A DNA stretch of 64,000 nucleotides from the human T2T-CHM13v2.0 reference genome, Homo sapiens, in NCBI RefSeq assembly GCF_009914755.1, contig NC_060947.1; one strand, written 5' to 3'. The position numbers and the translations under genes are program-made. The stretch's first letter is position 1. Each line of letters begins with the position of its first letter. Shown piece after piece: positions 4,050-39,720 of this stretch. A model generated the notes under the pieces. That model made no database searches, was not told the DNA's origin, and worked only from the letters and a program-made list of their open reading frames with translations.

Positions 4050-4950
4050 CTAAAGCGGCGGGGGTCGGCGGGGTGAGGTAGTGGCGACCCAGCCTGGAAG
4101 TCTTCCCCTGCGGGGTGGCCCAGGCCCGGCAGCAGAGGCAGCACTGGATTATTTGAGGCCCTCTGTCTGAGGTGAGGCCCGCCTCAGTCCTCCCTCAGCG
4201 TCTTACCTTGCCTCCTCACCGAGCCTGGGCCGGCTTCCCTCCGCCGACGTCAGGCCGTCGCTCGTTGCTCAGGGCGAGAATCTCGCGGTCTTCTGACCTC
4301 CAATGCGCAAGTCAGTGGCGTCACATCCTGGCAACGGTACTACCCTGGGTTCCGGGCAGGGGTGGAACTGGATTCTGCCTGGATGGGGATCGGATGGGGG
4401 TGGAGGTAAGCATGAAGATGGTGATGGGGCAAGGGGTAAGGATTGGGACGGGGGTCCTGAGGCTGTAGATCCTGGTGGGGTCGGGGGAGTTGGGGGTGGG
4501 TGGGCGGGGCCTTCGGTCATCCCTCAGGGTCCTGAAGTTGATGCCTGGCTGAGCCTGGACCGCCATCCTCTGCAGATTGCTTCTGCTCCCCTCAGACCAA
4601 GTCTCTGACTCTGAGTCCCCCTGAAGTGGCATTGGGGGAAGGGGTGTGGTCTGGGTGACATCACTGCCTGCGTTTACCAGGGCTGACAAGAGGGGCTGAG
4701 CTGGATTCTGTGGTCCCTCTATGGTGTGTGGGGTGGGGGGGCGGTGTGGACCCTCAGTCCTCACTCAGGAGGGTCGTCTTCGTCACCTCTGGCTGTTGGA
4801 TGAAGTGATGGGCAGGAGATGCTCTGTTTCTGTCACCTGTGAGCATTTGCACAGCTGCACCCCTTGTAGAGAATGCCTGCGGGTCCCAGGCCAGGTGCTC
4901 CCTGCAGGGCGGGGCGGCAGCTCCCGCGGTTGTAGTGACCTCCTATTTCA
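4050..4950. promoter_or_regulatory. MAGEA3 CpG-rich germline promoter, probably bidirectional
   Basis: Local CpG cluster, Ets-like cores (acatcctgg ~4323, ttccgg ~4349), GC boxes (gggcgggg ~4502) and G-tracts. MAGE-A promoters are known to be silenced by methylation and to depend on Ets sites. Confidence 0.7.
4207..4284 (-). other. MAGEA3: MAGEA3 non-coding exon 1
   Basis: GAGATTCTCGCCCTGAGCAACGAG...GAGGAGGCAAG|gtaaga; CpG-rich; matches the recalled mRNA 5' end. TSS approximate. Confidence 0.85.
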
Positions 4951-5382
4951 GTCTTTGTGTTCTGTTGAAAGAATTTTTTTTTTTTAAAAATGTAATTCCT
5001 CTGCCACTATGGTGGTTTCAGGTTGTTATTAGCAGAACTCTGGAGTCATACTGCCTTAACCAACCAAATTTTCCTGGTGTCCTGCTATTACCTAGGGCTC
5101 TTGGCATCGTGTTTTCAGAGGCTGCCTCAGATTGTGCAAAGAAGTGAAGTGGAAAATTTCAAACTTTTATTCTACCCATTCTGTCATCTACCGTGTAGGC
5201 CGGCTACAAACCTCCCCAACATCCCTGCTGCTAACCCCCTCCAACCAACACTGCAAGTGTCAAACACAAGTACCAGCTCAACACAGCCTTGAGTCTCACC
5301 CTGGGCTTTCCCTGTTTTGTTGCGTAGATTTTGTTGCTGATACTGGTTTTTTATTTACTGTTTCCATTCTGTAATTTTCCAG

Positions 5383-5441
5383 GTTTGATTTGGGAAGCAG
5401 AGCACAGCAGCCCAAATTTGTTGTAATGGCGGCGGCTACAG
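5383..5441 (+). pseudogene. CSAG-like first coding exon (MAAAT-A) of a divergent transcript from the MAGEA3 promoter
   Basis: ctgtaattttccag|GTTTGATTTGGG...GTAATGGCGGCGGCTACAG|gtaagg; ATG at 5426 in good Kozak context; resembles the recalled CSAG1 start MSATTA. Confidence 0.7.
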
Positions 5442-7194
5442 GTAAGGCACTAAATTGTAAATAATTTAAGCTGAGTTTACATTTTTACAGTGTTGTGCTC
5501 CCCATGAATGAATATGTTATACTCCTCTATGTATTTCAAGCTTTTTTTTACCTGAATATGTCAGTATACTTCGACAGTTGTCTCTATAAAGACCTTATAC
5601 ATTTTTATTAGACTTCTTTTCAGGCAATTCATGAATTTTGTTGCTATTGCAAATGGCATATTGTCTATTAATTGTTGTAGTTAGTTATTGCTTTCGTGAG
5701 GTGAAGATTTTGATTTTGCTGTAGTAATCTGTTGCACTCCTCGTTCTGAAGGCCGATGCACTTGAATATTCCACATACCTTTTCCTTTGAATTTTCAAGA
5801 TCGATAATGGTATTATCACTAAACATTACATATTCTTCCAGTATTCATACCACTTACTCATTTTGGTACTTATAGCTCTTTGTGTCTCAATCCTGATTTC
5901 AATCGTAGAGATAATAGCCTACATCTACTTCTCGTTCCTGACGTGAATGATAATTATTCGAACGTTTTGCATTTAAGTATGTTTGCTGTTGATTTTAGGA
6001 AGTGCAATTTCTCTTTGAATATAGGTTAAATACTTTTTTTTTTTTTACCATGAACTCATATTAAATTTCTTTAAAAAGCTTTTTCTGTACCCGTTGACAC
6101 AATCAAATTTTTTTCTCCTCCATTTTGTATGTAAGGAATTACAATGAAACCGTTTTTTTTTTTTCCCCTAATGTTAAACCGTATGTTATTTCCTTGGGCA
6201 GAGCCTGTTTATTTAATATGCTAGTAATTTACGTAGGATATTTGCTGCTATGTAAGGGAGCTTACTTAATGTGTGCTTTTTTTCCCATCAAGGGTGGGAT
6301 GTGGTCCTCATCTGGTTTTTGAATCCAGGAGGGCTAGTCTGGAAGAATGAATTGAACAATTGTAAATATTTTGTATGTTCTAGAAGAGATGAGATAAGAT
6401 GGTGGTTAGTTTTCCCTGATCATTTGGTAGAATTGGCCTCCAATACTGCCTAACCTGGAATGTTTGAAGGTGGCTTGAGCTTTGAATATTGTACAGTTTC
6501 AGTTTTTATAGTTTAATTAAAGTTTTCTTTTTCTTTTTGGATCAGTTTGGTTACTGGTTTATTTTATTTCTACAAAGTGGTCAGTTTCATTTAGGATTTC
6601 ACTTTTAATGGCATATTTATTATAAAAAAAGTTTTACTAGGGAAAGCCTTCACACGTACAGAATAATAGGAACTAATGTAATGAACCCAGGATACTAGAT
6701 ACCCAGCATGAACAACTTTAAATACACAGCAAATCTGGTTCCAGTTAGACACTTGCCTACCTGCACATCAGCTTCTGGAATAACGTGGAGCGAATCTAAG
6801 GCATTAGACCATTTCATCTCGAAATAACTCAATATGCATTTTTAAAAGATAAGGACGTTTTATTAAACAGAATCCCAATAGTTTTCATATCTGAAAAATT
6901 ATATAAATGATTATCAAATATTCAACTATTTTACATGCTTATCTGGCCGACTTATACTTTATAAAAAACATATTTCTTTGATGGAGTACCCAAATATGGT
7001 AACTTTCCCGCCACTTGCTTCACTGTAGTGGTTTCATACATGTATAATACAGCTAGGTTTGTGTGTGTGTGTAACATTCTACATTCTGTCCCATGATTCT
7101 CCAACTTCTTAAGTTACTTTTAGACTTTACATACATTAAGCTTCACTCTTTGTGCTGTAAAGATCTATGGGTTTTGACAAATGCCTCGTGCCGT

Positions 7195-7558
7195 TGTCTT
7201 AGTCCCTTTGGGCTTCCATAACAAAAATAGTGTAGACTGGGTGGCTTATAAACAACACAACTTTATTTCTCACATTCTAGAGGTTGGGAAGTCCAAGATC
7301 AAGGTGCTGGCAGATTTCATGTCTGATGGAGACCTGCTCCCTAGTTCATAGACAGTTGCCTTTTCCCTATGTCCTCACATGGAAGAAGGGGCAAGGGATC
7401 TCTGTGGGGTCTATTTTATAAAAACACTGATCCCATTCATGAGGACTCTGCTCTCATGAACTAGTCATTCTCCAAATACCCCACCTTCTACCTAATACCA
7501 TCACCTTGGTATTTCAGCAGATGAAGTTTGTGGGAACACAAATATTCAGATGAAAGCA
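7195..7558 (-). mobile_element. MLT1A-type MaLR solo LTR inside an old L1 (L1MC-like, ~7100-8830)
   Basis: tgtcttagtcc...gactgggtggcttataaacaac...gaagtccaagatcaaggtgctggcag; flanks are typical antisense L1M 3' sequence. Confidence 0.75.
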
Positions 7559-8834
7559 AGCACGGAACCACCATTACAGTATTACCATACTAGTTTCACT
7601 GCCCTGATAAATCCCCTGTGCTTGTCAGATAACCCCCTTGGCTGCCACTGATAGGTGTTTCATCTTTATAATTTTGCCTTTTCCTGAATGTCATATAAAT
7701 AGACTCGCATACTATGTAGCCTTTTTAGACTGGTTTCTTTCACCTAGCATAATGAACTGAAGAGTCATGTATAACTTTGTGTGGCTCAGAACTTATTCCT
7801 TTTCATTGAGGAGTAGTAGTATCATTGTCTGGTTGTACCATAGTGCGTGTGTATATATATATCCATCCACCAAATGAAATACATTTTGGATGCTTCTATT
7901 TTTGGTGATTATGAAATAATCTTTTGTATACAATCGTATACAAATTTTTATGTAGACGTAAGTTTTCACGTCAATTGGGTAAATTGATTATGACTGCTGA
8001 ATCTTATGCTGTGTTCAGTTTTTTAAGAAAACGCCAAATTGTCTTCCAAAGTGGCTGTACCATGTTGCATTTCCACCAGCAATGAATGAGAGTTTCTGTT
8101 GCTCCACATCTTCCCTGGCAATTGATCTTGGTTTTCTTTTCTTTTTTTTTTTTTTTTTGCTTTTTTATGGATTTTGGACATTCTAATAGGTGTGTAGTGG
8201 TATCTCATTTTAGTACACAGTTATCTAATGAGAACGGATTCTCAGTACTTTTTTATGCTTATTTGCCATGTGTATATCTTCTTTTGTGAGGAGTGTGTTC
8301 AGATCTTTGCCTATTTTCATGTTTTTTCTGTCGTTGAACTTTAAGAATTCGTGTATGTTGTAGAGATATGTTCTTTATCACATATGTGTACCACCGATGT
8401 TTTCTGCTAGTCTGTGGCTTCTGTTTTCATTCTCTTAACATTGTCCTTTGAAGAGCACATGATGTTTATTTTAATAAAATCTACTTGGTAAATTTTTCTT
8501 TCATTGATCATGCTTTTGGTGTTGAATTTAAAAACTCACCACTGAACTCAAAGTTATGTGAATTTTCTCTTATGTTTTCTTATAGAGGGTTGTATAGTTT
8601 TTGCATTTTGCATTAGGTCTGTGATTTATATCGAGTTAATTTTTCTGGAATATGTAAGGATGTTTCTAGGTTATTATAATTTGCCTGTAGATGTCTAATT
8701 GTTCAGGCACCTTTTGCTGGAAAAACTGTACTTTCACCATTATTGCCTTTGTTGTGAATCACCTGACTATAAGTGTGCAGGTCTATTTCTGAGCTCTATT
8801 CTGTTTTATTAATCTATGTGTGCATTCTTTGCTA

Positions 8835-9253
8835 ATGCTTATGTCCTCCACCAAATTCATACTTTGAAGCCCTCAGCCCCGGGGTGTCTGCATTTGGAGA
8901 TGAGGCCTCTAAGGAAGTAATTAATATTAAAAGAGGTCATAAGGGTGGGGCCTTGATCCCATAGGATTAGTATGGTTATAAGCAGTTAGAAGAGACAGAA
9001 GAAATTACTTGTGTGCCTGCACTAGCTCTCTCTCTCTCTCTCTCTCTGCACATGCACAGAGGAAAGGCCAAGAACGGATATATTGAGAAAGGGCTATCTA
9101 CAAGCCAGGAATAAGGCCGTCACCAGAAACCAACCCTGCCAGTCCTTGATCTGGGACTTCCATACTTCAAAACTGTGAAAAAAAATAAATTTGTTTTGTT
9201 TCAGCTACTCAGTCCATGGCATTTTGTTAGGGCAGCCTGAGCTTACTAAGACA
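8835..9253 (+). mobile_element. MLT1A-type MaLR LTR
   Basis: aaattcata...tttggagatgaggcctctaaggaagtaatt...ggcagcctgagcttactaagaca. Confidence 0.75.
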
Positions 9254-9370
9254 TAACCTCAGGTAACACAATTTTTTTTTGTTTTCTCCTACAGAAAAAA
9301 AAAAAACCCATAATTTTGACATTTAAGTCTGTGGTTCATTTTGAGTTACATTTTTGTATGGTGTAAGATA

Positions 9371-9725
9371 TGTGCGATGGTTAGTATTATGTGTCAACTT
9401 GTCTAGGCTATAGTGCTCAGCCGTGTGGTCAAACAGTAGTCTAGATGTTGTTGTGAAGGTATTTTGTAGTTGTGATTGACATTTACCATCAGTTGACTTT
9501 AAGGGAAGCAGTTTAATCTCCATAATGTGGATGGGCCTCATCCAGTTAGTTGAAGGTGTTAAGAGAAAAGACTAAGGTTTCCTGGAAAAGGAATTCTACC
9601 GCAAGACTAACATAAAAATGTTGTGTGAGTTTCTAGCCTGCTGGCCTGCCTCACAGATTTGGGATATACAAGACCTCATAATCACATGAGATAATTCCTT
9701 ATGAAACCTTTATCTTTCTTTCTCT
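9371..9725 (+). mobile_element. MLT2 (ERVL) LTR carrying the CSAG2/3-like N-terminal reading frame
   Basis: gatggttagtattatgtgtcaacttgtctaggctatagtg is an MLT2 5' end. 9525-9650 translates MWMGLIQLVEGVKRKD*GFLEKEFYRKTNIKMLCEFLACWPA. Confidence 0.85.
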
Positions 9726-10047
9726 CCCTCCCTTTTTACATAGATAGATATGTAGGTAGGTAGCTAGATAGATAGATAGACAGGAAGAAAGCAATTACGG
9801 ATTGAAATTCAGTTTTGCATATAGATATCCAGTTGTTCTAGACCCAGTTGAATACACTATCATTTCTCTCCTCGAATCTTCATTTGTATCTTTATCAATA
9901 TTTGACTTATATATATATGCATATACATGTGGATCCATTCCTGGACTTTACTCTCTTCTTTTTATGTGTTTCTAAATTTAGGACAATTCCACACTATACT
10001 GATTATTGTTAGTTAATAAACCTTCAAATGAAGTAGGGGAACCCCTC

Positions 10048-20227: not shown

Positions 20228-22970
20228 CTGAAGAAAGAAGTGACACAGCTTCTCAGGTTACAGCCAGCCAGCAGAGGCCAAGGCCCCAAGGCTGAGGGTA
20301 GGGCAGGTGGGGCTGGGCGCTCTGGGGTCCCATCCATTATGGGTGGGTGGGACCCTTGGTATACATTCAGGGTGAACACCTCACCTTGACTGCTGGCACT
20401 GCCTGGGTCTCCTCTGCTCTGTGGCTTGAGGACACTGACTCAGACTAAAGCCTCACCTCCAAGTTCCTGGAGCTCCTGGAAGAGGGATCAAGGGGCCCTC
20501 AGGGTGCAGGCTGCAAGCACAGCCTCAGTCCCCCGAGTGCTGTCAGGAGGGTGGGCTGGACTCTGTCAGTTCCCTCACTCTTTTGCATAGATGGCCCCTT
20601 CTATGCTCACTCAGGACCTTCACGTTTCTCCTAGCAGGGCCTGAATCCTGCCCCTTTGCTGGCCTGAGAAACTCTCAGATCAAGAGCTCATATCCCTGAT
20701 ATGGAACAGAAGGACATGAGGGGACCCACATCTGGCCACACCTGCTCAGGGCTTCCAGGCAAGGACAGTAAGAGGTGGCCATATTCAGCTGGGTCCATGT
20801 GTCCTGAGATGAGGAACCTGCTTGGTCCACATCTTGATGCCTGCAGATCCTGGGACTCTCCCTGTTTACCTGAGGCCACCACCTTAAATCAAATCCCTAT
20901 CTCCAAGAGACACCAGTAAAGGAAGTGAGGGGATTCCATCCACCCACTGTTCCCTGCAGTTTCCCATGCCTGACAGAAAAGGCAGGGCAGGGCTGGGTCA
21001 TGTGCATTCGCCGTGTGGGGTCCACTTAGTCCTCACCTTGACTCCTGGCTGAGCCTGGGACCCTCCCTCTGACCTAAATGCAGCCCCTCCAACCAAGGCC
21101 TCCCCCTCCCTGAGACCACTGATCCTGGTATAAGAGAGGGGGCCTCAACTGACAGCTCTGGCCATGCTCTCTGCGGAAACAGCAGGGGCAAGGCAGATTT
21201 CTGTGGGGCCTCCATCTGCCTTCTGGTCCAGCGGTACCCTTAATCCTCCCTCAGGTTCCTCACCTGGGGTCTTAGCAGATCCTGGGTCCGCTCTGTCTGT
21301 TAATCAGATGGGGGTCCCTGTGTTGGCCTGAGTAACCCACTGAGAACTAGGTCCTCACCTCCCTGAGATCCCAAAGCCGACATGAGGAGGACTCACATCC
21401 CGTCACCCCTCCATGGGGTGTCCAGGGCTGACACCAGGGGCTGCCCCCTTCTGTTCTGGGGTGGAAGTTCCAAAGTTCTCCTGTGGGTTATTCATCTTTA
21501 CTCCTGCCGGGACCTGCCGTTCCTCAACCCTCAGCCCCCTGAGATGAGCAGACATCTCCCCTTTACACCAAGACCACATCTCCCTGAGGGTTCTCCAACT
21601 TCCTGCCCGTGGCACAAGTGAGATTGCCACTTAGGGCCACCCTGGATCAGGTCCCCCCAGAGCTAAGAACAAGGACAGCAGACTCTGCGGGGTCTCTTCT
21701 TTCTGGGCTGGGGGTACCTCCAGTCCTCATGAAAGGTGCACACCGTGGGTCCTGCAGATGCTGGGACTCCTCCCTCTGCTGACCAGGTGTGGCTCCCTCT
21801 ACTGGCCTGTCAGTGTCACTGGGACCAAGGTCCTCACCTCCCTGAGACCTCCCACCTCCAACCACATGGCAGAAATGAGAGCATGCCACATGCCATCCCT
21901 GCCTGTGGCCTCCCAGGGCTGAGAACAGGGGAAGCTGGGCGGCTCTGCAAGTTCCCTTCTTCTTTATGATGTGGAGGTAACTTCTTACCTTCAGTCCTTA
22001 CCAAACTTCCTCCCCTTCACTCCTGGAAGACCCTGGACTCTATCCGGTGCTGACCAGGTGTGGCTACCTCTGCTGAGCGGAGGACGCCCCTCAGACCAAG
22101 GCCCCCACCTCACTGAGACCCGGGAGGTAGAGGTGAGGGGGCACCACACGGTCACCCCTGCGTGGGATTCCCAAAGCTGACAGAAGGTGCAAGTTTCAGG
22201 GGGCCCTCCGCTGTCTGGGTGTCTTCCAGGTGTTCAGATTGAGTCCCGACAGGGCCCGGCTCTTTCCCTCCTGCTGAACTGTATGCCAAGGCCACCATGT
22301 CCCTGATACCCTCAGGGAGAAAGTGGTGGGACAGCATCCCTTCCCCACAGTCCTGCCCAGGCCTCCCAGGACTGACAGTAGGGGCAGGTTTCCTAAGTCT
22401 GGGAAGAAAGGTCTTCTGAGTCATCCTTCAGAGCTCTGGGACTCCTCTCTCTGCTGACCTGAGGCCCCACTCCCCAGACCACAGTCCTCTCCTCCCTGAC
22501 ACCCCAAAGGCACAGCGAGTCCAGGCCACATGTGGCCACTGTGCCTGGGACCTCCCAGGGTCGAGGTCCCCACTGATCTGGACTCCAAGTTCCCGTCAGT
22601 CCTCCCTCTTCTTCCTGCCCTTGACTCCCGGCAGGCTTGGGCCCCACCCCAGCCTGCTGACCTGAGTCTTCATCCCTCAGATTCCCAAGGCCAAATGAGG
22701 AGGCACCTCAGTCTCAAACAGGGGGTGGGTGGGCCCCCTGTCCTGGGGTCCTGGGTGCCCTCGGGCCTCTCTCAGGCCTCCCTTGTCTCCCAGCAGGGCC
22801 TGGGCCCTCCCTCTGCTCCCCGCAATCCGTGCTCATGATATGAAGCCCCTTCCCTCCGTCAGCCCTGGATGCCCATGCCAGGATCCACATGCCTGGCCAC
22901 CATGCCTGGAAATTCCCAGGGCTGACAGCAAGGACAGAGCCCCGCTCTGTGGAGCCCTCAACCCTCTCTG

Positions 22971-24015
22971 AGGGTCCTGAACGTGATGGCTGGCAGAGCC
23001 TGGCTGCTGCCCTCTCCTAGGCAGCCCTGCCCTGATCACACCAACCTCTGACTCCAGAGTCCCCTGAGGCTTAAGTGGCAGAGAGTTGGGGGCGGCCCAG
23101 CCTGAGAAGTCCGCCCCCGGGTGGTCCTGGGTTGGCAGCAGGGGTGGTGCTGGATTTTTTAGGGTCCTCTATCTTGGGTTGCAACGGGGTGTCCCTAGTC
23201 CTCCCTCAACGCCTCACCTTTCCTTCACACACAGCCCGGGCCCGCTTTCCTCCGCCGATCTTAAGCCACCCCTCAAAACCAGGCCCTCGCTTCCCTCTGA
23301 TCCCTGAGGCGCAAATCAGTGGCATCACATCCGGGCACCCGGGGCTTCCCTGCGTTGACAGCAGGGGCAAAACCTGATTCTGTCGGGGTGGGGGTGGGGA
23401 TGGGAATGGGAATGGAGGAGGGGTGGGGGCGAGGATGGGGGTGAAGATGGGGATGGGGATGGGGATCCTGAGGCTGTAGGTCGTGGCGGTGACGGTGGGC
23501 TTGGGGGTGAGGGAGGCCCTCAGTCGTTCCTCAGGGTCCTCACCTTGAAACCTGGCAGAACCTGGGCCCTGCCCTCTCCTAACCACCCCTGCCTTGGTCA
23601 CACCAAGCTCTGACTCCAGAGTCCCCTGTGGCATAAGCGGCGGGGGTTGGCAGGGCGCCGGGGGGTGGCCCAGACTGAGAAGTACTCCCCTAGGTGGTCC
23701 AGGGCTGGCAGCAGGGGTGACGCTGAATTATTTGGGGTCCTCTATCTGGGGTGGAGGCGTCCTCAGTCCTCCCTCAGCCTCTCACCTTGTCTTCTCACAG
23801 AGCCTGGGTCCACTTCCCTCTGCCAATCTCAAGCCGCCCCTCAGACCGAGACCCTCGCTTCTCTGACCCCCTAGCCGTCACATCCGGCCACCAAGCCTGG
23901 GGCTTCCTTGGGTTGACTGCTGGTGTCATAGCGGATTCTGCTATGAGTGGGGGTGGAAATGGGGGTGGGGGTGGGGGGTCGAGGTCGAGGGGGTGGGCAC
24001 TCTCAGTCATCCTCA
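22971..24015 (-). promoter_or_regulatory. Two tandem MAGE promoter/exon-1 modules (22971-23532 and 23533-24015)
   Basis: Each is homologous to MAGEA3 ~3950-4520 and has an Ets core CCGGATGT (23327-23334; 23880-23887), a donor AAG|gtgag (23218; 23786) and a G-tract. Confidence 0.75.
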
Positions 24016-25262
24016 AGGTCCTGACCTTGATGCCTGGCAGAGCCTGGATCCCATCCTGTGTGGATGGTGTCTGCTCCCCTCAGACCAAAGCACTGACTCC
24101 GAGTCCCCTGAGGTGGCAGTGGAGGGAGGGATATGGTCGGGGCGACAACATTGTCAGGGTCTTCCAGGGCTGACAGGAGGGGCTGAACTGGATTCTGTGG
24201 TCCCTCTATGTGGGGTGAGTGGACCCTCAATCCTTACTCAGGAGGGTTCTCCTCTTGGCTCCTGGCTCTTTGATGAAGTGATGGGTGGGGGATGCTCTGT
24301 TTCTGTCACCTCTGAGTATTCGCCCAGCTGTACCCCTTGCAGAGAATGGCTGCGGGTCCCAGGCCAGGTGCTCCCTGGGGAGCTGCAGTGCCTGCGATTG
24401 TAGTGGCCTCTGGGAGAAGACACACACCTTCCCACGGGGGCTCCTCCCCAGCCAGAAGTCGACTTGTCAAACCTTTTGTCCTAAAGCATTTATTTTTACA
24501 CTGAAGAGGCTGAGCAGCAGCAAGAGAATTGAGGAGTCCTGCATTTGGAATTTTTGTGACATTTAATTGTACTGTTTAGTGACGTGCATATTTTAATCCG
24601 CATTCACACAGTAAGAAATAAATTTTACATTTCTGCTAATTGTATGTGTACATTATATGTCATATATGTAGACTATGCTTATGTTTAGATACATAAACAT
24701 GTATGTATATAAGTTTGTTATATATGAATAATTTTATGTATTCACACTATATATCTTTACAGATATATATGTACATATATTACATATACTTATTTCATTA
24801 AACAATATCTACTCATACTATGTATGATTCACTCATGCTATTCCATTTCTAGTTCATTCTTTATATTCTATTTAAATTACATTTTTGGAAGGCCAGGCCT
24901 CACCTACTAAGTTGGTGTCAAGTGGGTATTAACAGAACTCTGGAGCCATCATGTCTCAATCACACCAAGATTCCTGGTGTCCTGATATTACCCCAGGGCT
25001 ACTGGCATCACATTGTGAGATGCTGCCTCATATTAGGCAATAATATGGGGTGGGAGTTTAAAATAATTTTTCCTTCTACCCATTCTGTAGTGTGCTGTCA
25101 GCGCAGGCTACAGACCTCCCCAACTTCTCTGCCACTACCCCATGCCCCAAACACAAGTAGCAGTTCAATGCAGTCTTAGTCTCCCCAGGGATTTCTCTGT
25201 TTTGTGGTTTAGATTTTATTGCTAATCCTTTTTTTTTCTTTTTCCATTCTATACTTTTCCAG

Positions 25263-25322
25263 AATTGATTTTGGGAACAGAACACAGCAGCCTGAACTTG
25301 ATTGTTATTTTGGCAGCTACAG
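25263..25322 (+). other. Paralogue of the divergent (CSAG-like) exon, without ATG
   Basis: atacttttccag|AATTGATTTTGGG...GGCAGCTACAG|gtaagg; splice sites conserved with 5383-5441. Confidence 0.6.
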
Positions 25323-26074
25323 GTAAGGCACTAGCTCTGTATATAATTTAAGCAGAATTGACATCCTTGCAGTATTCTGTTTTCCATCAATGAATTTATG
25401 ACACTCCTCCATTTATTTGGAAAATTTTTTCCAGAATCTATCAGTAAACTTATACAGTTGCCTCCGTGAAGATCTTATATATTTTTGTGAGGCTTCTGTT
25501 TAATTTTGGATTTTATTGCTTTTTTGAATGCTATATTTTCTGTTTCATATGTTCTAAGTTGCTTTTGTGTGGCAAGCCTCTTGATTTTGCTGTAGTGAAC
25601 TACTATTTGCTGGTTTCTGAAGCCTCTTATTTATTTGAATATTCCATGTGTCTTTTCCTTTGAATTTTCTTGATAGATAATCATATTCTCAACAAATATT
25701 ATCTTTCTTTTCAATCTTCATACCTCTTTTTCATTTTGATATCCATAGCTCTGACTCTTTTGCATTTTTGCTACCCACTGCAGCTATGGACAGTAGCCAT
25801 GACAGCATATGTCAACGACTTGTGTCTGACATGAATGTGAATGCTTCTTCTAAAAGTTCATATTTAAATATGGTTGCTGCCAATTTTAGGAAAGGGAAGT
25901 TCCTTTTCATCTTAGTTTGCTGAAAGTTGTCAATTTGAAATCACATAGTATTTCTTTCAGAGGCTTTTTCTGTACTCATCGAAATGACCAAATGTTTTTT
26001 CTACTCTATCTTGTATGTACAGAATTACAATTGAATTGTTTCTAATGTGAAATAATTCTTTTGGCTTGAAGGCA

Positions 26075-26860
26075 GAACAAGAAGGCCAAACAGAAGCCTC
26101 CACCAATTGTCCTCCCTGCAGGAAGATCAAATTGAACAACTATCCACACAAAGAAGCACTTTAATGAGAATGAAAAATCAGGTGAATGATCATAGTACCT
26201 GGTTCTAACTTCATACCACTGAAAGGGGCACTGAAGATGGTAGGAGAGACAGTCTTGAATTGCTAACACCATCCCTGCCCCATCTCCCAGTAGTTGCTGT
26301 GTGGCACGGAAAGAGAATCTGTGTGTTTAAGGGAGAGAGAGGGCAGTGATTGTGGGACTTTGCGTTGGAACTCACTACTGCCCTGTTACAGCAGAAAGCA
26401 ACACCAGGCATAACTCAGCCGGTACCCACAGAGGGAGCATTTAGACCAGCCCTAACCAGTGGTCAGAACCTGAGTTCCACAAGCCTCACCACTGTGGACT
26501 AAAGTGGTCCGTGGTGCTAAATGAAAGGCAGTCTAGGCCACAAGGATTACAATTCTTGGGCAAGTCCTGGTGCTGGGCTAAGCTCAGAGCCAGTGGACTT
26601 AGGGGGCATGCACCCTAGTGAGATACCAACTGGGGTGGCCAAGCGGGTGCTCGTACCACCCCTCCCTCAACTGCAGGTAGTACAGCTTGCAGCTTGCCTG
26701 TAGTCTCAGCTACTCGGGATGCTGAGGCAGGAGAATGGCGTCAACCTGGGAGGCGGAGCTTGCAGTGAGCCGAGATCGTGCGACTGCACTCCAGCCTGAG
26801 CAACAGAGCGAGACTCCATCTCAAAAAAATAAAATAAAAAATAAAAATAAATAAATAAAG
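26075..26860 (+). mobile_element. Old L1 5' region (L1M1/L1PB-like) fused to an Alu right arm (26695-26860)
   Basis: caaattgaacaactatccacacaaagaagcac...gcctcaccactgtggactaaagtg...gggctaagctcagagccagtggactt; then gcctgtagtctcagctactcggg...A-tail. Confidence 0.7.
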
Positions 26861-27049
26861 TAGTTGATCCATGGGTAGATATATACATACATACAAATAC
26901 GTATATGTGTGTGTATGTATATATATGCACAGTAGAACCAGAACTGTTAACCCCCATCCTTGTGGGAAACAGACTTATCAACTAGACTGCAGTGCTTTTC
27001 ACTATAGTGCTTCTTTCACTTAACGCTAAGCTCATGTGTTTCTGTTGCT

Positions 27050-30000
27050 TGATAGCTCATTTCTTTTTTTCACGAATAATGTTCTATTATTGTTGGACCA
27101 CAGTTTGTTTATCCGTTCACCTACTGAAGAACATCCTGGTTGTTTCCAGTTTTTAGTAATTATGAAATAAGTTGCCATACACCCTTGTATGCAAGTTTTT
27201 TGTGTGGAAGCAAGTTTGCAAACTAGTTGGATGCATACCTAGGAATAGCAAGACTTGTGTTCAGCTTTGTTGAAAACAAACAAACAAACAAAAAACTGAC
27301 AAACCATCTTTGAAAGTGGCTGTACCAGTTTGCATTCCCAGAAGCAATGAGTAAGAGTGTCTGTTGCTCCTTAGTGTTGCCAGCAAGTGGTATTGTTAGA
27401 CATTCTAATAGCTGTGTATCTCATTGTTATTTAATTCACAATTCACTAACGAAGAATGATGTTGATGGTCTTGTCTTATGCTTATTTCCCATCTGTATAT
27501 CTTCTTTGGCGATGTGTCTGTTCAGAGTTTCTGCCCATTGATTGAGTTTTTATAAATTTGTTTTCTTATTGTTCAGTTGTAAGCCTCCTTTGTAGATTTT
27601 GGATACAGATCTTCTATCCGATATATGTTTTGCAAACACTTGGTCATAGTCTGTGGCTTCTCTTTTCTTTTTCCTAACAATGTCTTTCAAAGAGCTTTCG
27701 AGGTTTCTTTTTTATTTTTAGAAAGTCTAACTTATCAATTTTGCCTTTCATAGACCACCCTTTTGATGTTGTATCTAAAAAATTTATCACCAAAACCCAG
27801 GTCATGTAGATCTTCCCCTATTTTCTTCAAGAAGTTTTATAATATTGCATTTTAAATTTGAGTCTATAATATACTTTGAGGTTATTTTTTGTGAAAGATA
27901 TAAAGTTTTATCTAGGTTCATTTCTTTGCATATTGAGATCCATTTGTTCAGGTGCCCTTTGTTGAAAAGACTATCATTTCTCTATAGGATTATCTTTGCA
28001 TCTTTGTCAAAAAATCAGTAAACTATATTTTTATGGATCTATTTCTATTTTGTTCCATTGATGTGTGTCCATTCTTTTGGCAATATCATACTTTGTAGAT
28101 TGCTGTACCTTTACAGAACAAGTGGTGTACCGAAGCTGACATCAACCATGAGAAATCATATTTCTAATAGGTTCCTTTTACATGATGTGAAGAGAATGGC
28201 ATTTTACCTCTGAGATCTTCCCCCTGGAAGTTCATACTCTCATTCTAATCATGACAGACGTATAAGACAAATCCCAGTAGAAGGGCTTTATGCACAATAG
28301 CTGACCAATGCTACTCGAAACTGTGAAGATCAAAGTCATCAAACGTAGGGAAAGTCTAAGACCTGCCACAGCTAAGAGGAGCCTATGGAGACATGACGAG
28401 TAAATGTGAAACGATGGTCCTACATGAAACTCTGGAACAGAAAAAAAAATGCATTAGGTAAAAACAAAGGAAATCTGAATAAAGTATGTGCTCTGGTTAA
28501 TAGCAATGTGTTAATATAGGTTCAATAGTTGTAACAAATGTACCATACTAATGGAAAATGTTAATAATAGAGGAAACGGTGTAGAGCATAAGGCACTCAA
28601 TACTAGGTTTTCTATTTTTCTCTAAGTCTAAAGCTACAGGTTGATTAACAATGAAAAACTGTTAGCAAACTACTTAAAGAGTATTTACCAAAAAACTACA
28701 GCAAACATCAAAAAGTTGAAAGTTACTTTTACTTTGAAATTGTAAAAGACAATGATTCTTGCTATCACCATTTCTATTCAATACTGTAATAGAGGTACTA
28801 GCCAGTGCAGTAATGCTAAGCAGATGAAATCAAAGGGCTAGAGATAAAAAATAAACAAAATTTGCCTAATTAACAGATGGTTTTTAGATTGTGTATAAAG
28901 AAAATTCAAAATAAGAGTAAATTATTCATTTAATAAAATATATATAAAAGTTGCAGGACAAATATCAATTTACAAAAAAATTAAGTTTCTGCAGTAACAG
29001 TATGAAAATGAGAATAAACAAAATATACCTTGTAAAATGAATCTAACCAAAGAAAGCCTAAGAACTTCATGGAAATTAAATTAATGAACTAATTAAGGCT
29101 TTAAATATAAAATAAATGGATGTGAGTATTCAATATTGTAGACATGTTAATTATTTCCAGAAGTAATGTACAGATGATTGCAATCCCAATTTAAAAATTA
29201 AAGTCTTTATGTGTGAATGTGTGTGCTTACATACATGTGTGTGTAAAATATTGCAAGATGACTCTGAAATTTAAATTGACATGTGATATAGTTTCTATAT
29301 GTGTCCCCACCCAAATCTCATTTTGAATTGTAATCTCCATTGTTGGAGGTGGGGCCTGGTGGGAAGTGATTGGATCATGGGGCTGGATTTCTCATGAATG
29401 GTTTAGCGCCACCCCCTTGGTGCTGTTATCGTGATAGTGAGTGAGTTCTCGTGAGATCTGGTTGTTTAAAAGTGTGTGGCATCTCCCCTGCCTCTCTCTT
29501 ATTCCTGCTCTGGCCATGTGACGTACCTGCTTCCGCTTCACCTTCTGCCATGATTGTTTCATGAGGCCTCCCCAGAAGCTGAGCAGATGCCAGCATCATG
29601 TTTCCTGTACAGCCTGCAGAACCGTGAGCCAATTAAGCTTCTTTTCTTTATAAATTATCCAGTCTCAAATATTTCTTTATAGCAATGTGAGAACAGATTA
29701 ACACAACATGCAATAGGCTAAGCATGGCCAAGACATTCTTGAGATAAAAGAAGATAAAAGGAGTTCCTCCACCAGATAGTAAGAATGACTAGAAAGCTCT
29801 AGTGATAAAGAATTTGTAGTATGGGTACAAGGTGTAACAAATAGAACAATGGAGCTGAATAGAGATTCCTGAAACACACCCACTTAATACATGGACTTTT
29901 GATTTATATATTTAAAAAGAGCAGGAGAGATAGGGCAATAATAAAACTATAACTTTTAATAAATGACAGTGAAACAACTAAATATCCATGTAGAAAACAA

Positions 30001-34785: not shown

Positions 34786-35527
34786 TGTCAACCTAATTAT
34801 ATGGAGAGAGGCTCTTTAAAAGAAAATTTGGGAATAGAGCATTGCAGTGGGATTACACGTGCCACAGTAAATGATGTGTATTCAGAGAGGTAAAGGAAGA
34901 CAAAGGTTTTAAAAGGAAAAAATGAGGAGACTTACATAATTCCTTTGAAATAATTATCCTTAGGCCAGTCGTGACAGTTCACACCTGTAATCCTAGTACT
35001 TTGGGAGGCCGAGGAGGGCAGATGGCCTGAGCTCAGGAGTTCGAGAACAGCCTGGCCAACATGGCAAAATCCCATCTCTACAAAAAATACAAAATATTAG
35101 CCAGATGTGGTGGTGCAGGCCTGTGGTCCCAGCTACTTGGAGGCTGAGGCGGGAGGATGGCTTGAGCCCAGGAGGCAGATGTTGTAGTGAGCTGAGATCG
35201 TGCCACTGCACTTCAACCTGGGTGACAGAATGAGAATCTGTCTCAAAAAAAAAAAAGAAGAAGGAAATAATTATCATTGACTACAAAGGTCAATAACAAG
35301 GGTGATGCCAGGCCAAGGTTGGACAAGCAGTTGCTAGGCGGATGCCCTCACAGAAGTATTTTTTGCACAAGGTGGTAATGGCCTTTGTACAAGGCTGTAG
35401 GTTTTGCAGACTCTTTTGTTATCAGGCATTCTTACATGATAACCCTTCCTTCATAACCTTTTGCAGCTGTATTTGTCAGTGGTTTTTTAACATTAGTGAC
35501 TCCATTTTGATTCTGACAACTTTCACA
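34786..35527 (-). mobile_element. ERV1 MER4-group solo LTR (subfamily uncertain) interrupted by an AluJ (~34963-35260)
   Basis: Minus strand starts TGTGAAAGTTGTCAGAATCAAAATGGAGTCAC and ends ...GGTTGACA; Alu TSD gaaataattatc. Confidence 0.65.
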
Positions 35528-35684
35528 GAATATAATTTCTAAAAATAGTTTTATTGAGATATACTTGATATATATACTCTGGCCCCAAACCCAGAATACC
35601 CACCTCCCTCCCTTCCCACACCACTGCCTCTTCCTTCCTCCCTCCCTCCCCACCATCTGAGAATATACAGACCCACACATCATT

Positions 35685-36258
35685 TTACAACAGGTTCATT
35701 TTATTTTCATCACCCTGTGGGGCGCAAAATGTACTCTAGACCTTGTTGGCTATTTCTCCGGCGGGGGGTGTGGGGGGCGGGTCAGACCTTTGGGGACTTC
35801 TCAGATAGATTTGAGGTCTCTTGCCTTGCCCTGAAATTACAGGCTGCGCAGGGAAATGCTGGAGATGGTGGAGGTAGGTCTTCTGGCTTACTTGGTCCTG
35901 CTGTGGCTGATTTTTATTGAGTTCCTTATTCAGCTGGTTACAGTGGCTAGATAGTGTTGGCCCACTTCCTTCCTCAGGTTTGCTTGAAGCGGGGGTCTTT
36001 TAGGGAGAAGCTTTTTTCCTGGAACTCCCTCACAGGGTTCTTTTTCCCTTTCAGGTTGTCTTGGGAACCTGGAAGGACAGCAGGGAGATCACAGAAGGGA
36101 ATTGGTTTTGGGGGAGAGGATGGAAGAGGGGTGGGAACAGAAGCTTCATGAGAAGGGGTGCAGGCTGGGGTGGGGGTTAGAGCCAGGACAGGACAGGGTA
36201 GGAGTCGGAGCTTGAGTGGGCCACTCACCTTGATAGGGCTTCTGGGCCTGGGTTGAGA
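35685..36258 (-). pseudogene. 5'-truncated CSAG (chondrosarcoma-associated gene/TRAG-3) paralogue: end of penultimate exon, 160-bp intron, last exon
   Basis: CTCAACCCAGGCCCAGAAGCCCTATCAAG|gtgagt (36229) ... ctgtccttccag|GTTCCCAAGA (36068) splices to LNPGPEALSRFPRQPEREKEPCEGVPGKK, versus recalled CSAG2/3 LNPGPEALSKFPRQPGREKGPIKEVPGTKGSP. AATAAA at 35913-35918 and 35700-35705. Confidence 0.8.
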
Positions 36259-36271
36259 TGTTGGCAAGGAT

Positions 36272-36589
36272 GTGAATGTAAAATGGTACAGTCACTCTGA
36301 AAAGGAGTTTAACAGTTTCTAATAAAACTAAATACGCAATTTGCATATGAACATAAAATTAGGCTATTGGCCATTAATTACGGATAAATAAAAACTGTCC
36401 ACAATTAGCCAGACATGCAAGATAAGGGTTGCATCAAGGTTGAACACTGAAGACAAATCTCCTTAAGTTTTTATTTGTTGTAATAAATGGCCAATAGCCT
36501 AATTTTATGTTCATATGCTAATTGCATATTTAGTTTTATTAGAAACTGTTAAACTCCTTTTCAGAGTGACTGTACCATTTTACATTCAC
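36272..36589. repeat. Inverted repeat/hairpin, arms 36272-36396 and 36466-36589, 69-bp loop
   Basis: Core 36272-36375 equals the reverse complement of 36486-36589 with 2 mismatches in 104 bp. Confidence 0.95.

Positions 36590-39720
<3,131 letters not shown>

What the first reader, a model, noticed from the sequence alone, without database searches (positions are those of the whole stretch)
35685..36258. Orphan 3' half of a CSAG gene on the opposite strand, 26 kb from the 5' half
Seen: two exon remnants with an intact gtgagt donor and cag acceptor splice to LNPGPEALSRFPRQPEREKEPCEGVPGKKLLPK, followed by AATAAA signals. The frame slips near CTCCCTAAAAG, where CSAG appears to stop. The upstream part is replaced by L1 sequence at ~36258, and I could not find the middle exon (FTVLGE...TPKR) by eye. 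Inference: this diverged copy is either the source locus of the segment fused to the MLT2 exon or an early decayed CSAG duplicate. With the finding above, the window holds both CSAG building blocks in opposite orientation, which an inversion could join.
Basis: partly seen in the sequence, partly recalled or inferred. Interest (0 to 1): 0.75.

Follow-up and report, generated by a model that had tools for sequence, protein, structure and literature searches.

The report
Old rearranged CSAG/VCX-type gene fragment
This is a genuine but dead and scrambled leftover of an old CSAG/VCX-type mini-gene beside the MAGEA palindrome, one of about fourteen such copies in the genome, and it is not the piece from which today's CSAG genes were built.

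Summary
Window 35578-36258 (minus strand) carries the last 30 nt of a CSAG-type coding exon, a 160-nt GT-AG intron, a 46-codon last exon, a 3'UTR and a conserved AATAAA. The homology stops at 36258 against L1-like repeat.

The "source locus / inversion" reading is not supported.
- The genome holds 13 such modules on Xq27-28, plus a spliced retrocopy on chr12.
- The orphan lies outside the CSAG1-4 clade (100/100 support) and is 80-85% identical to every copy.
- Units beside the loci I take to be MAGEA1, A4 and A5 already carry the 5' part and the module on one strand.
- CSAG1-4 differ from these by a ~1.8-kb deletion that made the CWPA|FTVLGE exon junction. They also share a downstream flank with the A4/A5 units that the orphan lacks.
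- The orphan is not the lost end of the MAGEA6-DT copy: its path to CSAG3 is 0.25, against 0.085 for that copy's 5' part.

New here: the next 69 nt of the module sit at 36397-36465 on the plus strand, between L1-derived inverted arms. Inverting 35578-36396 restores colinearity, so the minus orientation is probably secondary.

This is an ordinary unannotated pseudogene relic of low interest.

The parts
36229..36258 (-). Last 30 nt of the module's first coding exon (…LNPGPEALS + first two bases of the split AGG codon). It is cut off at 36258/36259; the junction is uncertain by about 5 nt.
   Evidence: sequence. (aligns with CSAG1-4 and 8 other copies). (9 of 11 loci align exactly to 36258, none beyond).
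36069..36228 (-). 160-nt intron, GTGAGT donor and CAG acceptor.
   Evidence: The chr12 copy L025 lacks exactly this interval (…GPEALSRFPRQP is contiguous there), so these sites were once used for splicing.
35930..36068 (-). Last coding exon: 46 codons including the split codon, R-FPRQPEREKEPCEGVPGKKLLPKRPPLQANLRKEVGQHYLATVTS, with TGA at 35932-35930.
   Evidence: The same 46-codon frame is open in the X149.766 and A4-partner copies. CSAG1-4 stop after 23 codons because of a +1 C.
35578..35929 (-). 3'UTR and sequence past the poly(A) site. AATAAA at 35705-35700 is conserved; a second AATAAA at 35918-35913 is found in this copy only. Module homology ends at 35578.
36259..36396 (+). L1-like fragment, an inverted duplicate of 36466-36640 with a 31-nt internal deletion. 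It abuts the truncated exon.
   Evidence: arms 36272-36381 / 36480-36589, 110 nt, 97% complementary. (dispersed copies match both arms in opposite senses). (sequences printed; about 6 mismatches and 1 indel over about 123 nt, counted by eye).
36397..36465 (+). The next ~69 nt of the module (its 'tail'), in the opposite orientation to the body. It exactly fills the loop between the inverted L1 arms.
   Evidence: the tails of 4 of 4 copies (A1 partner, X149.784, X147.323, X149.766) match 35621-35578 (minus) and then 36397-36462/7 (plus), 74-78% identity, E 1e-9 to 2e-6. The same row appears (L006).
36466..36772 (-). Old L1-like element (sense on the minus strand, no 3' end or poly(A) at the junction). 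It holds the right arm of the inverted repeat.
   Evidence: 3178 first-look candidates; scored dispersed hits 72-79% identical over 36464-36772. The L1 ORF2 identity is recalled from the translated motif, not tested against a repeat library.
35277..35527 (.). Left flank: a discrete ~250-bp dispersed repeat, unrelated to the module or the L1. 35528-35577 is unassigned.
   Evidence: 792 first-look candidates; the scored hits start at query 3-9 and mostly end near 250-260, at 74-80% identity.
4945..10047 (+). Context, not cognate: the CSAG-like 5' part under MAGEA6-DT. It is 89-90% identical to CSAG1-3 and runs ~400 nt past the CSAG fusion point (9651) in the undeleted, ancestral state. It has no module of its own.

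Best explanation
The fragment is a non-functional relic of an old copy of the CSAG/VCX/SPANX-type mini-gene module. That module consists of a promoter, an exon with the M-S-x-KPRAS start, a short intron, a last exon and a 3'UTR.

This module radiated into about ten lineages on Xq27-28 long before CSAG1-4 diversified. Several copies sit downstream of the transcript that runs divergently from a MAGEA gene.

The copy in this window lies in single-copy DNA, 11 kb outside the MAGEA/CSAG palindrome arm. A later complex local rearrangement removed its promoter, start codon and most of exon 1. The same event, or a related one, duplicated about 140-170 nt of a neighbouring L1 in inverted orientation and flipped the 819-bp piece 35578-36396. 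As a result the body now reads on the minus strand while the next 69 nt of the same module still read on the plus strand.

It is neither the donor of the CSAG1-4 3' end nor the missing 3' end of the MAGEA6-DT CSAG paralogue.

Shown: homology, copy number, tree position, the split body/tail, and the flank differences. Inferred: the order of events, the original plus orientation, and the lack of function.
For: - Homology and anatomy.
- Copies: 13 modules on chrX 147.3-151.5 Mb plus chr12.
- Tree: the CSAG1-4 clade has 100/100 support with the orphan outside it. The orphan's end branch is 0.094, like the other old copies (0.058-0.11). Identity is 80.3-82.3% to CSAG1-4 and 81.4-84.6% to the rest, against 91.9-100% within CSAG1-4.
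- Ancestral colinear units: L020 and L022 match the CSAG3 locus across both the 5' part and the module at 78-82%, with ~1.8 kb extra between them. L021 has 6.4 kb extra. MAGE coding sequences lie beside them on the other strand.
- Flanks: CSAG1, CSAG3 and the A4 and A5 copies switch to a shared flank after ...GGTGGG (printed; CSAG2 and CSAG4 end at the same column). The orphan carries 21 more module bases like the A1/X149/X147 copies, and its tail is of that type.
- Not cognate with MAGEA6-DT: in the 5' tree, MAGEA6-DT+CSAG1-3 has 100/100 support and the path to CSAG3 is 0.085 (A4 to CSAG3: 0.19). In the module tree, orphan to CSAG3 is 0.25 and A4 to CSAG3 is 0.24.
- Outside the palindrome: the mirror copy at 100% identity ends at window 24456, and no mirror of the orphan exists.
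- Rearrangement.
- No close donor exists anywhere in the genome (best 85%). This favours an in-situ old copy that was rearranged later, since the arms are only about 5% diverged.
Against: - The module tree is a star: 6 of 10 inner branches are unsupported. An AU test does not reject orphan+CSAG1-4 as a clade (p 0.265). Exclusion of a sister relationship therefore rests on flanks and path lengths, not on topology.
- Repeat families were never named by a repeat library; the L1 identity is recalled.
- No orthologous primate sequence and no expression data were available, so both 'non-functional' and the dating are inferences.
- The donor, acceptor, 46-codon frame and poly(A) signal are all intact. 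This is compatible with neutral decay at ~9% divergence, but it does not prove neutrality.
- The one-inversion description leaves a ~138-bp direct L1 duplication around the fragment unexplained.
Confidence: 0.8

Rival explanations
1. It is the original 3' module of the CSAG-like partner of PSMAGEA (5' part at window 24006-27974, plus strand). It lay downstream on the same strand until the 819-bp flip.
For: Undoing the small inversion puts the module on the plus strand, 7.6 kb downstream of that 5' part. The A1 unit has a comparable 6.4-kb spacing. The predicted MAGEA6-DT model runs through that paralogue's region and ends at 35256, 322 bp short of the module (hub annotation). No third MAGE or 5' part is detectable nearby.
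Against: The PSMAGEA partner is 0.35-0.38 changes/site from all other 5' parts, against 0.19 for A4 to CSAG3. The orphan is no more distant from the other modules (0.19-0.25) than they are from one another. The closest relatives of the PSMAGEA unit, the loci I take to be MAGEA8/9/9B (74-78%), have no module within the ~10 kb downstream that I fetched.
Confidence: 0.2
2. It is a 750-bp piece of a module copied or inserted into a pre-existing L1 (a templated insertion with a long target duplication), and was never part of a full gene at this site.
For: After undoing the inversion, the fragment is flanked by direct copies of the same ~138-nt L1 stretch, both starting at the same L1 position. No other module or unit sequence is found around it.
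Against: No donor closer than 85% exists in this genome, while the L1 arms differ by only about 5%. A copy made at the time of the duplication should still have a close relative, unless the donor has been lost.
Confidence: 0.1
3. One reading: this locus is the source of the 3' segment that was fused, by way of an inversion, to the repeat-derived CSAG exon. An equivalent version is that it is the inverted 3' end of the MAGEA6-DT CSAG copy.
For: Both building blocks are in the window on opposite strands. The AU test cannot exclude orphan+CSAG1-4 as a clade (p 0.265). The orphan keeps the ancestral splice sites and frame.
Against: Colinear 5'-part-plus-module units exist at three older loci. The CSAG junction is explained by a 1.8-kb deletion. 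CSAG1-4 share their downstream flank with the A4/A5 units, not with the orphan. Divergence is 0.25 against the 0.085 expected for a cognate of MAGEA6-DT. The MAGEA6-DT copy breaks at a different module coordinate (L022 3369) from the orphan (about L022 1750), leaving 1.6 kb unaccounted for.
Confidence: 0.04

Closest known systems
CSAG1-4 (chondrosarcoma-associated gene family, Xq28 MAGEA/CSAG palindrome)
   Same: It is homologous over the exon tail, intron, last exon and 3'UTR (79% by BLAST, 80-82% in the alignment). The splice positions and the poly(A) signal are the same.
   Different: It lies outside the clade. It lacks the +1 C that sets the ...GTKGSP stop. It lacks the downstream flank shared by CSAG1-4. 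It has no 5' exons, no fusion junction and no start codon.
CSAG-like partners of the loci I take to be MAGEA1, MAGEA4 and MAGEA5 (L021, L022, L020; gene names inferred from recalled gene order, not from an annotation)
   Same: The divergence depth is the same (81-84% identity; paths 0.20-0.22). The A4 partner keeps the same 46-codon last exon. The orphan's tail is of the A1 type.
   Different: Those copies keep the upstream 1.2-1.9 kb of the module and a 5' part next to a MAGE gene. The orphan is truncated and locally inverted.
VCX/VCY genes (Pfam PF15231). A common origin of VCX/Y, SPANX and CSAG was proposed by Hansen et al. 2008, Mol Reprod Dev 75:219; I saw that paper only as cited in PMC8327908 (passages).
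   Same: The extended module aligns with VCX/VCY loci over 0.9-1.0 kb at 65-69% identity, including the MS(P/R)KPRAS exon and a 3' block. The VCX exon at L026 scores 53.6 bits for PF15231. The orphan's intron and start of last exon hit 4 Xp22 and 2 chrY loci at 74-77%.
   Different: The orphan has lost the part that carries the VCX-like promoter and start codon. Its peptide and the CSAG3 exon give no Pfam hit at E<=1.
Processed pseudogenes of the same family (chr12:273.5k, L025; chr17:41.698M, L030)
   Same: The same family, and likewise decayed.
   Different: Those lack the intron (L030 reads through contiguously). The orphan keeps the intron and 100-190 nt beyond the poly(A) site, so it is a DNA-level copy.

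Membership tests
CSAG1-4 clade (CSAG genes proper) | Nucleotide homology to the CSAG penultimate-exon tail, intron, last exon and 3'UTR | tested here: met
   79% over 574-675 nt, E 7e-143 to 1e-165.
CSAG1-4 clade (CSAG genes proper) | Placement inside the clade in a module tree | tested here: not met
   The CSAG1-4 clade has 100/100 support without the orphan. A sister position is not rejected (AU p 0.265).
CSAG1-4 clade (CSAG genes proper) | +1 C insertion that gives the ...PGTKGSP* end | tested here: not met
   The C is present in 4 of 4 CSAG copies and absent in the orphan and the 9 other copies. The orphan reads 46 codons.
CSAG1-4 clade (CSAG genes proper) | Shared downstream flank after ...GGTGGG (also found in the A4/A5 partners) | tested here: not met
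   The orphan continues with module sequence of the A1/X149/X147 type.
CSAG1-4 clade (CSAG genes proper) | Fusion junction CWPA|FTVLGE (the 1.8-kb deletion) and MAGEA-divergent 5' exons | tested here: inconclusive
   That part of the orphan is missing (truncated at 36258). No such sequence lies elsewhere in the window apart from the non-cognate MAGEA6-DT copy.
CSAG/VCX/SPANX-type mini-gene module | Homology to the module shared by about 13 X-linked copies, with the intron at the conserved position and a conserved AATAAA | tested here: met
   (nhmmer E 4.7e-210).
CSAG/VCX/SPANX-type mini-gene module | First coding exon with the M-S-x-KPRAS start and its upstream promoter region | tested here: not met
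   Absent from the whole window (motif scan; profile). It has been lost by truncation.
Processed (retroposed) pseudogene | Intron removed, and the copy ends at the poly(A) site with an A tail | tested here: not met
   The 160-nt intron is kept. Homology runs about 110 nt (body) plus 69 nt (tail) beyond the poly(A) site.
Gene truncated by a simple L1 retrotransposition | L1 3' end with poly(A) and target-site duplication at the junction, with gene sequence resuming on the far side | tested here: not met
   The junction L1 piece is an internal fragment duplicated in inverted orientation. Only the 69-nt tail resumes, in the opposite orientation.

The most novel reading that the evidence does not exclude
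Together with the three colinear MAGEA-linked units, the orphan indicates two things.

First, a VCX-like mini-gene with a 46-codon last exon once existed at ten or more Xq27-28 sites.

Second, the protein-coding CSAG1-4 genes arose by a single ~1.8-kb deletion, not by an inversion. That deletion removed the mini-gene's own promoter. It fused an exon made of a dispersed repeat, belonging to a MAGEA-divergent transcript, to what is 5'UTR in VCX. Part of the CSAG protein would then be translated former UTR. A later +1 insertion shortened the C-terminus.

On this reading the orphan preserves the ancestral C-terminal frame that CSAG1-4 lost.
Probability: 0.55. Interest if true: 0.4.

Novelty: new member of a known kind. 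Interest (0 to 1): 0.25.

Why it matters
On its own it matters little. It is an unannotated pseudogene fragment, with no sign of function, in a region already known for MAGEA/CSAG duplications.

Its value is as a marker:
- It lies outside the palindrome and outside the CSAG1-4 clade, and it keeps the ancestral splice sites and last-exon frame.
- It therefore helps to polarise changes on the CSAG1-4 stem (the +1 insertion and the flank change). It also helps to show that the CSAG architecture came from a deletion within a pre-existing MAGEA-linked unit.
- The split body/tail with an L1 inverted duplication is a compact example of a complex repair event.
- For annotation, the fragment and its sister copies could be flagged as CSAG/VCX-family pseudogenes.

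Tried and rejected
- Hansen et al. 2008 is not held, so I could not see which CSAG-like copies they had already described.
- One paper search failed on term syntax and was re-sent.
- Literature: searches found no paper in the held library that describes this fragment. One search ('MAGE-A' + 'bidirectional promoter' + 'CSAG') found 0 papers.
- I first read the loop 36397-36465 as L1 sequence by eye. One search showed it is the module tail, so that reading was dropped.
- I suspected the left flank 35275-35577 was the continuation of the same L1. One search shows a different ~250-bp repeat, so that was rejected.
- I looked for unit homology around the orphan in the DNA downstream of the loci I take to be the MAGEA8, 9B and 11 partners, and of one pseudogene partner (L031-L034). 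Only Alu-like and one other common repeat matched.
- tblastn with MAGEA6 found no third MAGE relic in the window. Only MAGEA6 and PSMAGEA were found.
- Pfam gave nothing for the orphan peptide or the CSAG3 exon at E<=1.
- Retrocopy origin was rejected because the intron is retained.

Full report
**1. What is in the sequence**

On the minus strand the window reads ...CTCAACCCAGGCCCAGAAGCCCTATCAAG|GTGAGT...(160-nt intron)...CCTTCCAG|GTTCCCAAGACAACCT.... The exon tail ends at 36229 and the last exon starts at 36068. It stays open for 46 codons to TGA at 35932-35930. AATAAA occurs at 35918-35913 and at 35705-35700.

**2. It is real homology, and the family is large**

A search of the window's own genome with 35685-36258 gave 29 matches from 24 candidates.
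- 13 matches are long ones on chrX between 147.3 and 151.5 Mb, including the query itself. One more lies on chr12.
- Partial matches fall at four Xp22 loci, two chrY loci, chr17, X:138.5 Mb and a pair at X:145.07 Mb.

By the hub's gene table, the copies at 151026208, 150994068 and 151007002 are the 3' ends of CSAG3, CSAG1 and CSAG4. The copy at 150974839 is identical to CSAG3 over the module, and I take it to be CSAG2 (the palindrome mirror; this is an inference).

Identity to the orphan is 73-80% by BLAST and 80-85% in a MAFFT alignment. Against 11 paralogous loci, homology runs from 35578 or 35595-35603 up to 36258 in 9 of 11 and to 36206 in 2. It never goes beyond 36258.

**3. Position in the family**

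In an ML tree of the 14 copies, CSAG1-4 form a clade with 100/100 support and the orphan is outside it. The remaining lineages form a star, with 6 of 10 inner branches unsupported. The orphan's end branch is 0.094; the other old copies have 0.058-0.11.

A result against a firm statement: an AU test does not reject a tree that holds orphan+CSAG1-4 together (p 0.265). The fragment is old.

**4. The CSAG architecture is ancestral and colinear**

I compared the CSAG3 locus (L013) with ~9-kb loci around every copy.
- L020 and L022 match CSAG3 over both the 5' part and the module at 78-82%, on one strand, with ~1.8 kb extra between the two parts.
- L021 does the same with 6.4 kb extra.

A six-frame search with the MAGEA6 protein places MAGE coding sequences beside these units on the opposite strand, at 150381069, 150189897 and 151484194. 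From the recalled gene order on Xq28 I call these MAGEA5, MAGEA4 and MAGEA1; no annotation was available for them. A search with the 5' part confirms the pairing.

Six other copies (L017, L018, L019, L023, L024, L025) show no CSAG 5' part within the 7-8 kb fetched upstream. Orphan modules are therefore common.

**5. How CSAG1-4 differ from the older units**

- In L013, one open frame runs ...MRCEFLACWPA|FTVLGEAWRDQ...KMSRKPRASSP...TPKRRGSGRHPLNPGPEALSK. FTVLG starts at L013 6551. That is exactly where homology to the 5' part ends (L013 6548-6551) and homology to the module begins (6552).
- In the A4/A5 units those two points are 1.8 kb apart. That interval is shared with the unit-only copies and with the A1 unit.
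- VCX/VCY loci align across the module side of the junction without a break. The copy under MAGEA6-DT continues ~400 nt past the junction on the 5' side, window 9651 to 10047. The CSAG1-4 state is therefore a deletion.
- The 5' side of the junction is a dispersed repeat: window 9370-9649 matches autosomal loci at 78-79%.

**6. The orphan is not the donor**

Downstream of the module, CSAG1, CSAG3 and the A4 and A5 copies switch, after ...GGTGGG, to one shared flank. The alignment shows CSAG2 and CSAG4 ending at the same point. Homology between CSAG3 and the A4/A5 loci continues for another 0.95-1.1 kb past the module end (L013 to 8294 and to 8477).

The orphan, the A1 copy, X149.784, X147.323 and X149.766 instead carry 21 further module bases. 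The CSAG1-4 module therefore travelled together with an A4/A5-type flank. CSAG1-4 also carry one extra C that the orphan and the 9 other copies lack. This C creates their early TAA. The 46-codon frame of the orphan is also open in X149.766 and in the A4 copy, so it looks ancestral.

**7. It is not the lost end of the neighbouring CSAG paralogues**

The window holds a CSAG-like 5' part at 4945-10047 (under MAGEA6-DT), 89-90% identical to CSAG1-3. A second, much more diverged one lies at 24006-27974, next to PSMAGEA. Neither has a module. A profile of the extended module finds only 36259-35578 in the whole window.

| Tree | Comparison | Path (changes/site) |
|---|---|---|
| 5' part | MAGEA6-DT to CSAG3 | 0.085 |
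| 5' part | A4 to CSAG3 | 0.19 |
| 5' part | PSMAGEA partner to all others | 0.35-0.38 |
| Module | orphan to CSAG3 | 0.25 |
| Module | A4 to CSAG3 | 0.24 |

In the 5'-part tree, MAGEA6-DT groups with CSAG1-3 at 100/100 support. The orphan has the depth of the A1/A4/A5 split. It is too deep for MAGEA6-DT and too shallow for the PSMAGEA partner. I keep the PSMAGEA assignment as a rival at 0.2, because position and restored orientation fit it.

**8. Setting**

The palindrome mirror copy, at 100% identity, ends at window 24456, and the orphan has no mirror. It therefore lies 11 kb outside the arm, in single-copy DNA. It is flanked on the left by a ~250-bp dispersed repeat (35277-35527) and an Alu-like masked stretch. 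On the right lies an old high-copy repeat that I recognise as L1 ORF2 3' sequence from recall.

**9. The junction is a rearrangement, not a clean L1 insertion**

- The repeat at 36259-36396 is an inverted duplicate of 36466-36640. The gapless core is 110 nt at 97%. By eye on the sequences printed, I count about 6 mismatches and one indel over ~123 nt, plus a 31-nt deletion in the left copy.
- The 69 nt between the arms are not L1. The stretches that follow the module body in 4 of 4 copies with a long tail match 35621-35578 on the minus strand and then 36397-36462/7 on the plus strand (74-78% identity, E 1e-9 to 2e-6; the same row is). At most 4-7 nt are lost at the break.
- Inverting 35578-36396 (819 bp) restores a colinear 750-bp module fragment on the plus strand. 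That is the strand of MAGEA6-DT and of the PSMAGEA partner. It leaves the fragment flanked by direct copies of the same L1 stretch.
- The arms differ by only about 5%, while no donor closer than 85% exists. I therefore infer an old resident copy that was truncated, partly inverted and patched with L1 sequence in a later complex event. The order of events and the mechanism (two-break inversion with fill-in, fold-back, or template switching) are inferences.

**10. Wider relations**

- The extended module aligns with VCX/VCY loci over 0.9-1.0 kb at 65-69% identity, including the exon MSPKPRASGPP.... That exon scores 53.6 bits for Pfam VCX_VCY.
- This agrees with Hansen et al. 2008, who proposed a common ancestor of VCX/Y, SPANX and CSAG. 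I saw that paper only as cited in PMC8327908 (passages); it is not held.
- The chr12 copy reads ...LGPEALSRFPRQP... without the intron. The chr17 copy is also contiguous. Both are spliced retrocopies, which shows that an old module of this type was once transcribed and spliced at exactly these sites.
- Papers on the palindrome (PMC5054716, passages) and on ampliconic genes (PMC13616518, passages) do not mention this fragment in the passages I saw. The RefSeq table from the hub has no feature there.

**11. Verdict**

The fragment is an unannotated, decayed and locally scrambled member of the CSAG/VCX-type module family. It is old and lies outside CSAG1-4. It is neither their source nor the missing end of the neighbouring paralogue. 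No function is indicated. The intact signals are what ~9% neutral divergence would often leave.

Limits: no repeat library, no primate orthologues, no expression data, an unresolved star tree, and gene names for the non-annotated MAGEA loci taken from recall.

Noticed in passing
L013 6551/6552 (CSAG3 locus); window 9651: The CSAG2/3 coding exon is a chimera. ...MRCEFLACWPA comes from the MAGEA-divergent 5' part (a dispersed repeat). FTVLGE...KMSRKPRAS... comes from the VCX-like module, where the matching stretch lies upstream of the VCX start codon. The join equals a ~1.8-kb deletion relative to the A4/A5 partner units. The copy under MAGEA6-DT keeps the undeleted state up to window 10047.
   Followed up: partly
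L025 7371-7881 (chr12:273.4-273.9k); L030 1690-2231 (chr17:41.698M): Two intronless copies of the module (…LGPEALSRFPRQP… and …KMKRKPRASSP… read through contiguously). They are processed retrocopies of an old, non-CSAG1-4 family member.
   Followed up: partly
window 24456: The outer boundary of the right arm of the MAGEA/CSAG palindrome. The mirror copy at 100% identity ends here, inside the shared PSMAGEA/partner promoter region, so PSMAGEA is in the arm but its CSAG-like partner is not.
   Followed up: partly
window 21000-28224: The PSMAGEA unit, labelled 'MAGEA4 pseudogene', finds its best non-mirror matches (74-78%) at 147.85, 148.05, 148.07, 148.14 and 147.95 Mb. These are beside what I take to be MAGEA9B, 9, 8 and 11. 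No match near the MAGEA4 locus appears at E<=1e-50.
   Followed up: no
L026 1420-3059 (chrX:8.03 Mb); L027 (chrY:14.96 Mb): VCX/VCY loci share about 0.9-1.0 kb with the extended CSAG-type module (65-69%), plus a ~120-nt 3' block. L028 (X:145.07 Mb, an inverted pair) and L029 (X:138.5 Mb) are further, unnamed relatives.
   Followed up: partly
window 35930-36068; L008; L011: The same 46-codon last-exon frame, ending ...(H/Q)Y(L/P)A(T/I)(V/M)TS*, is open in three separate old lineages: the orphan, X149.766 and the A4 partner. CSAG1-4 stop after 23 codons.
   Followed up: partly
window 37698-38095: A ~400-bp element, 78-85% identical to stretches in L031, L018 and L021 (all near MAGEA-type units). 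I did not determine whether it is a common repeat or part of the old duplication unit.
   Followed up: no
chrX 149765924 and 149783842; chrX 147322540 (L008, L005, L006): Three module copies with no CSAG 5' part in the 7-8 kb fetched upstream and no MAGE coding match within ~300 kb. Two of them form a supported pair (99/98). Their genomic context is unknown.
   Followed up: no
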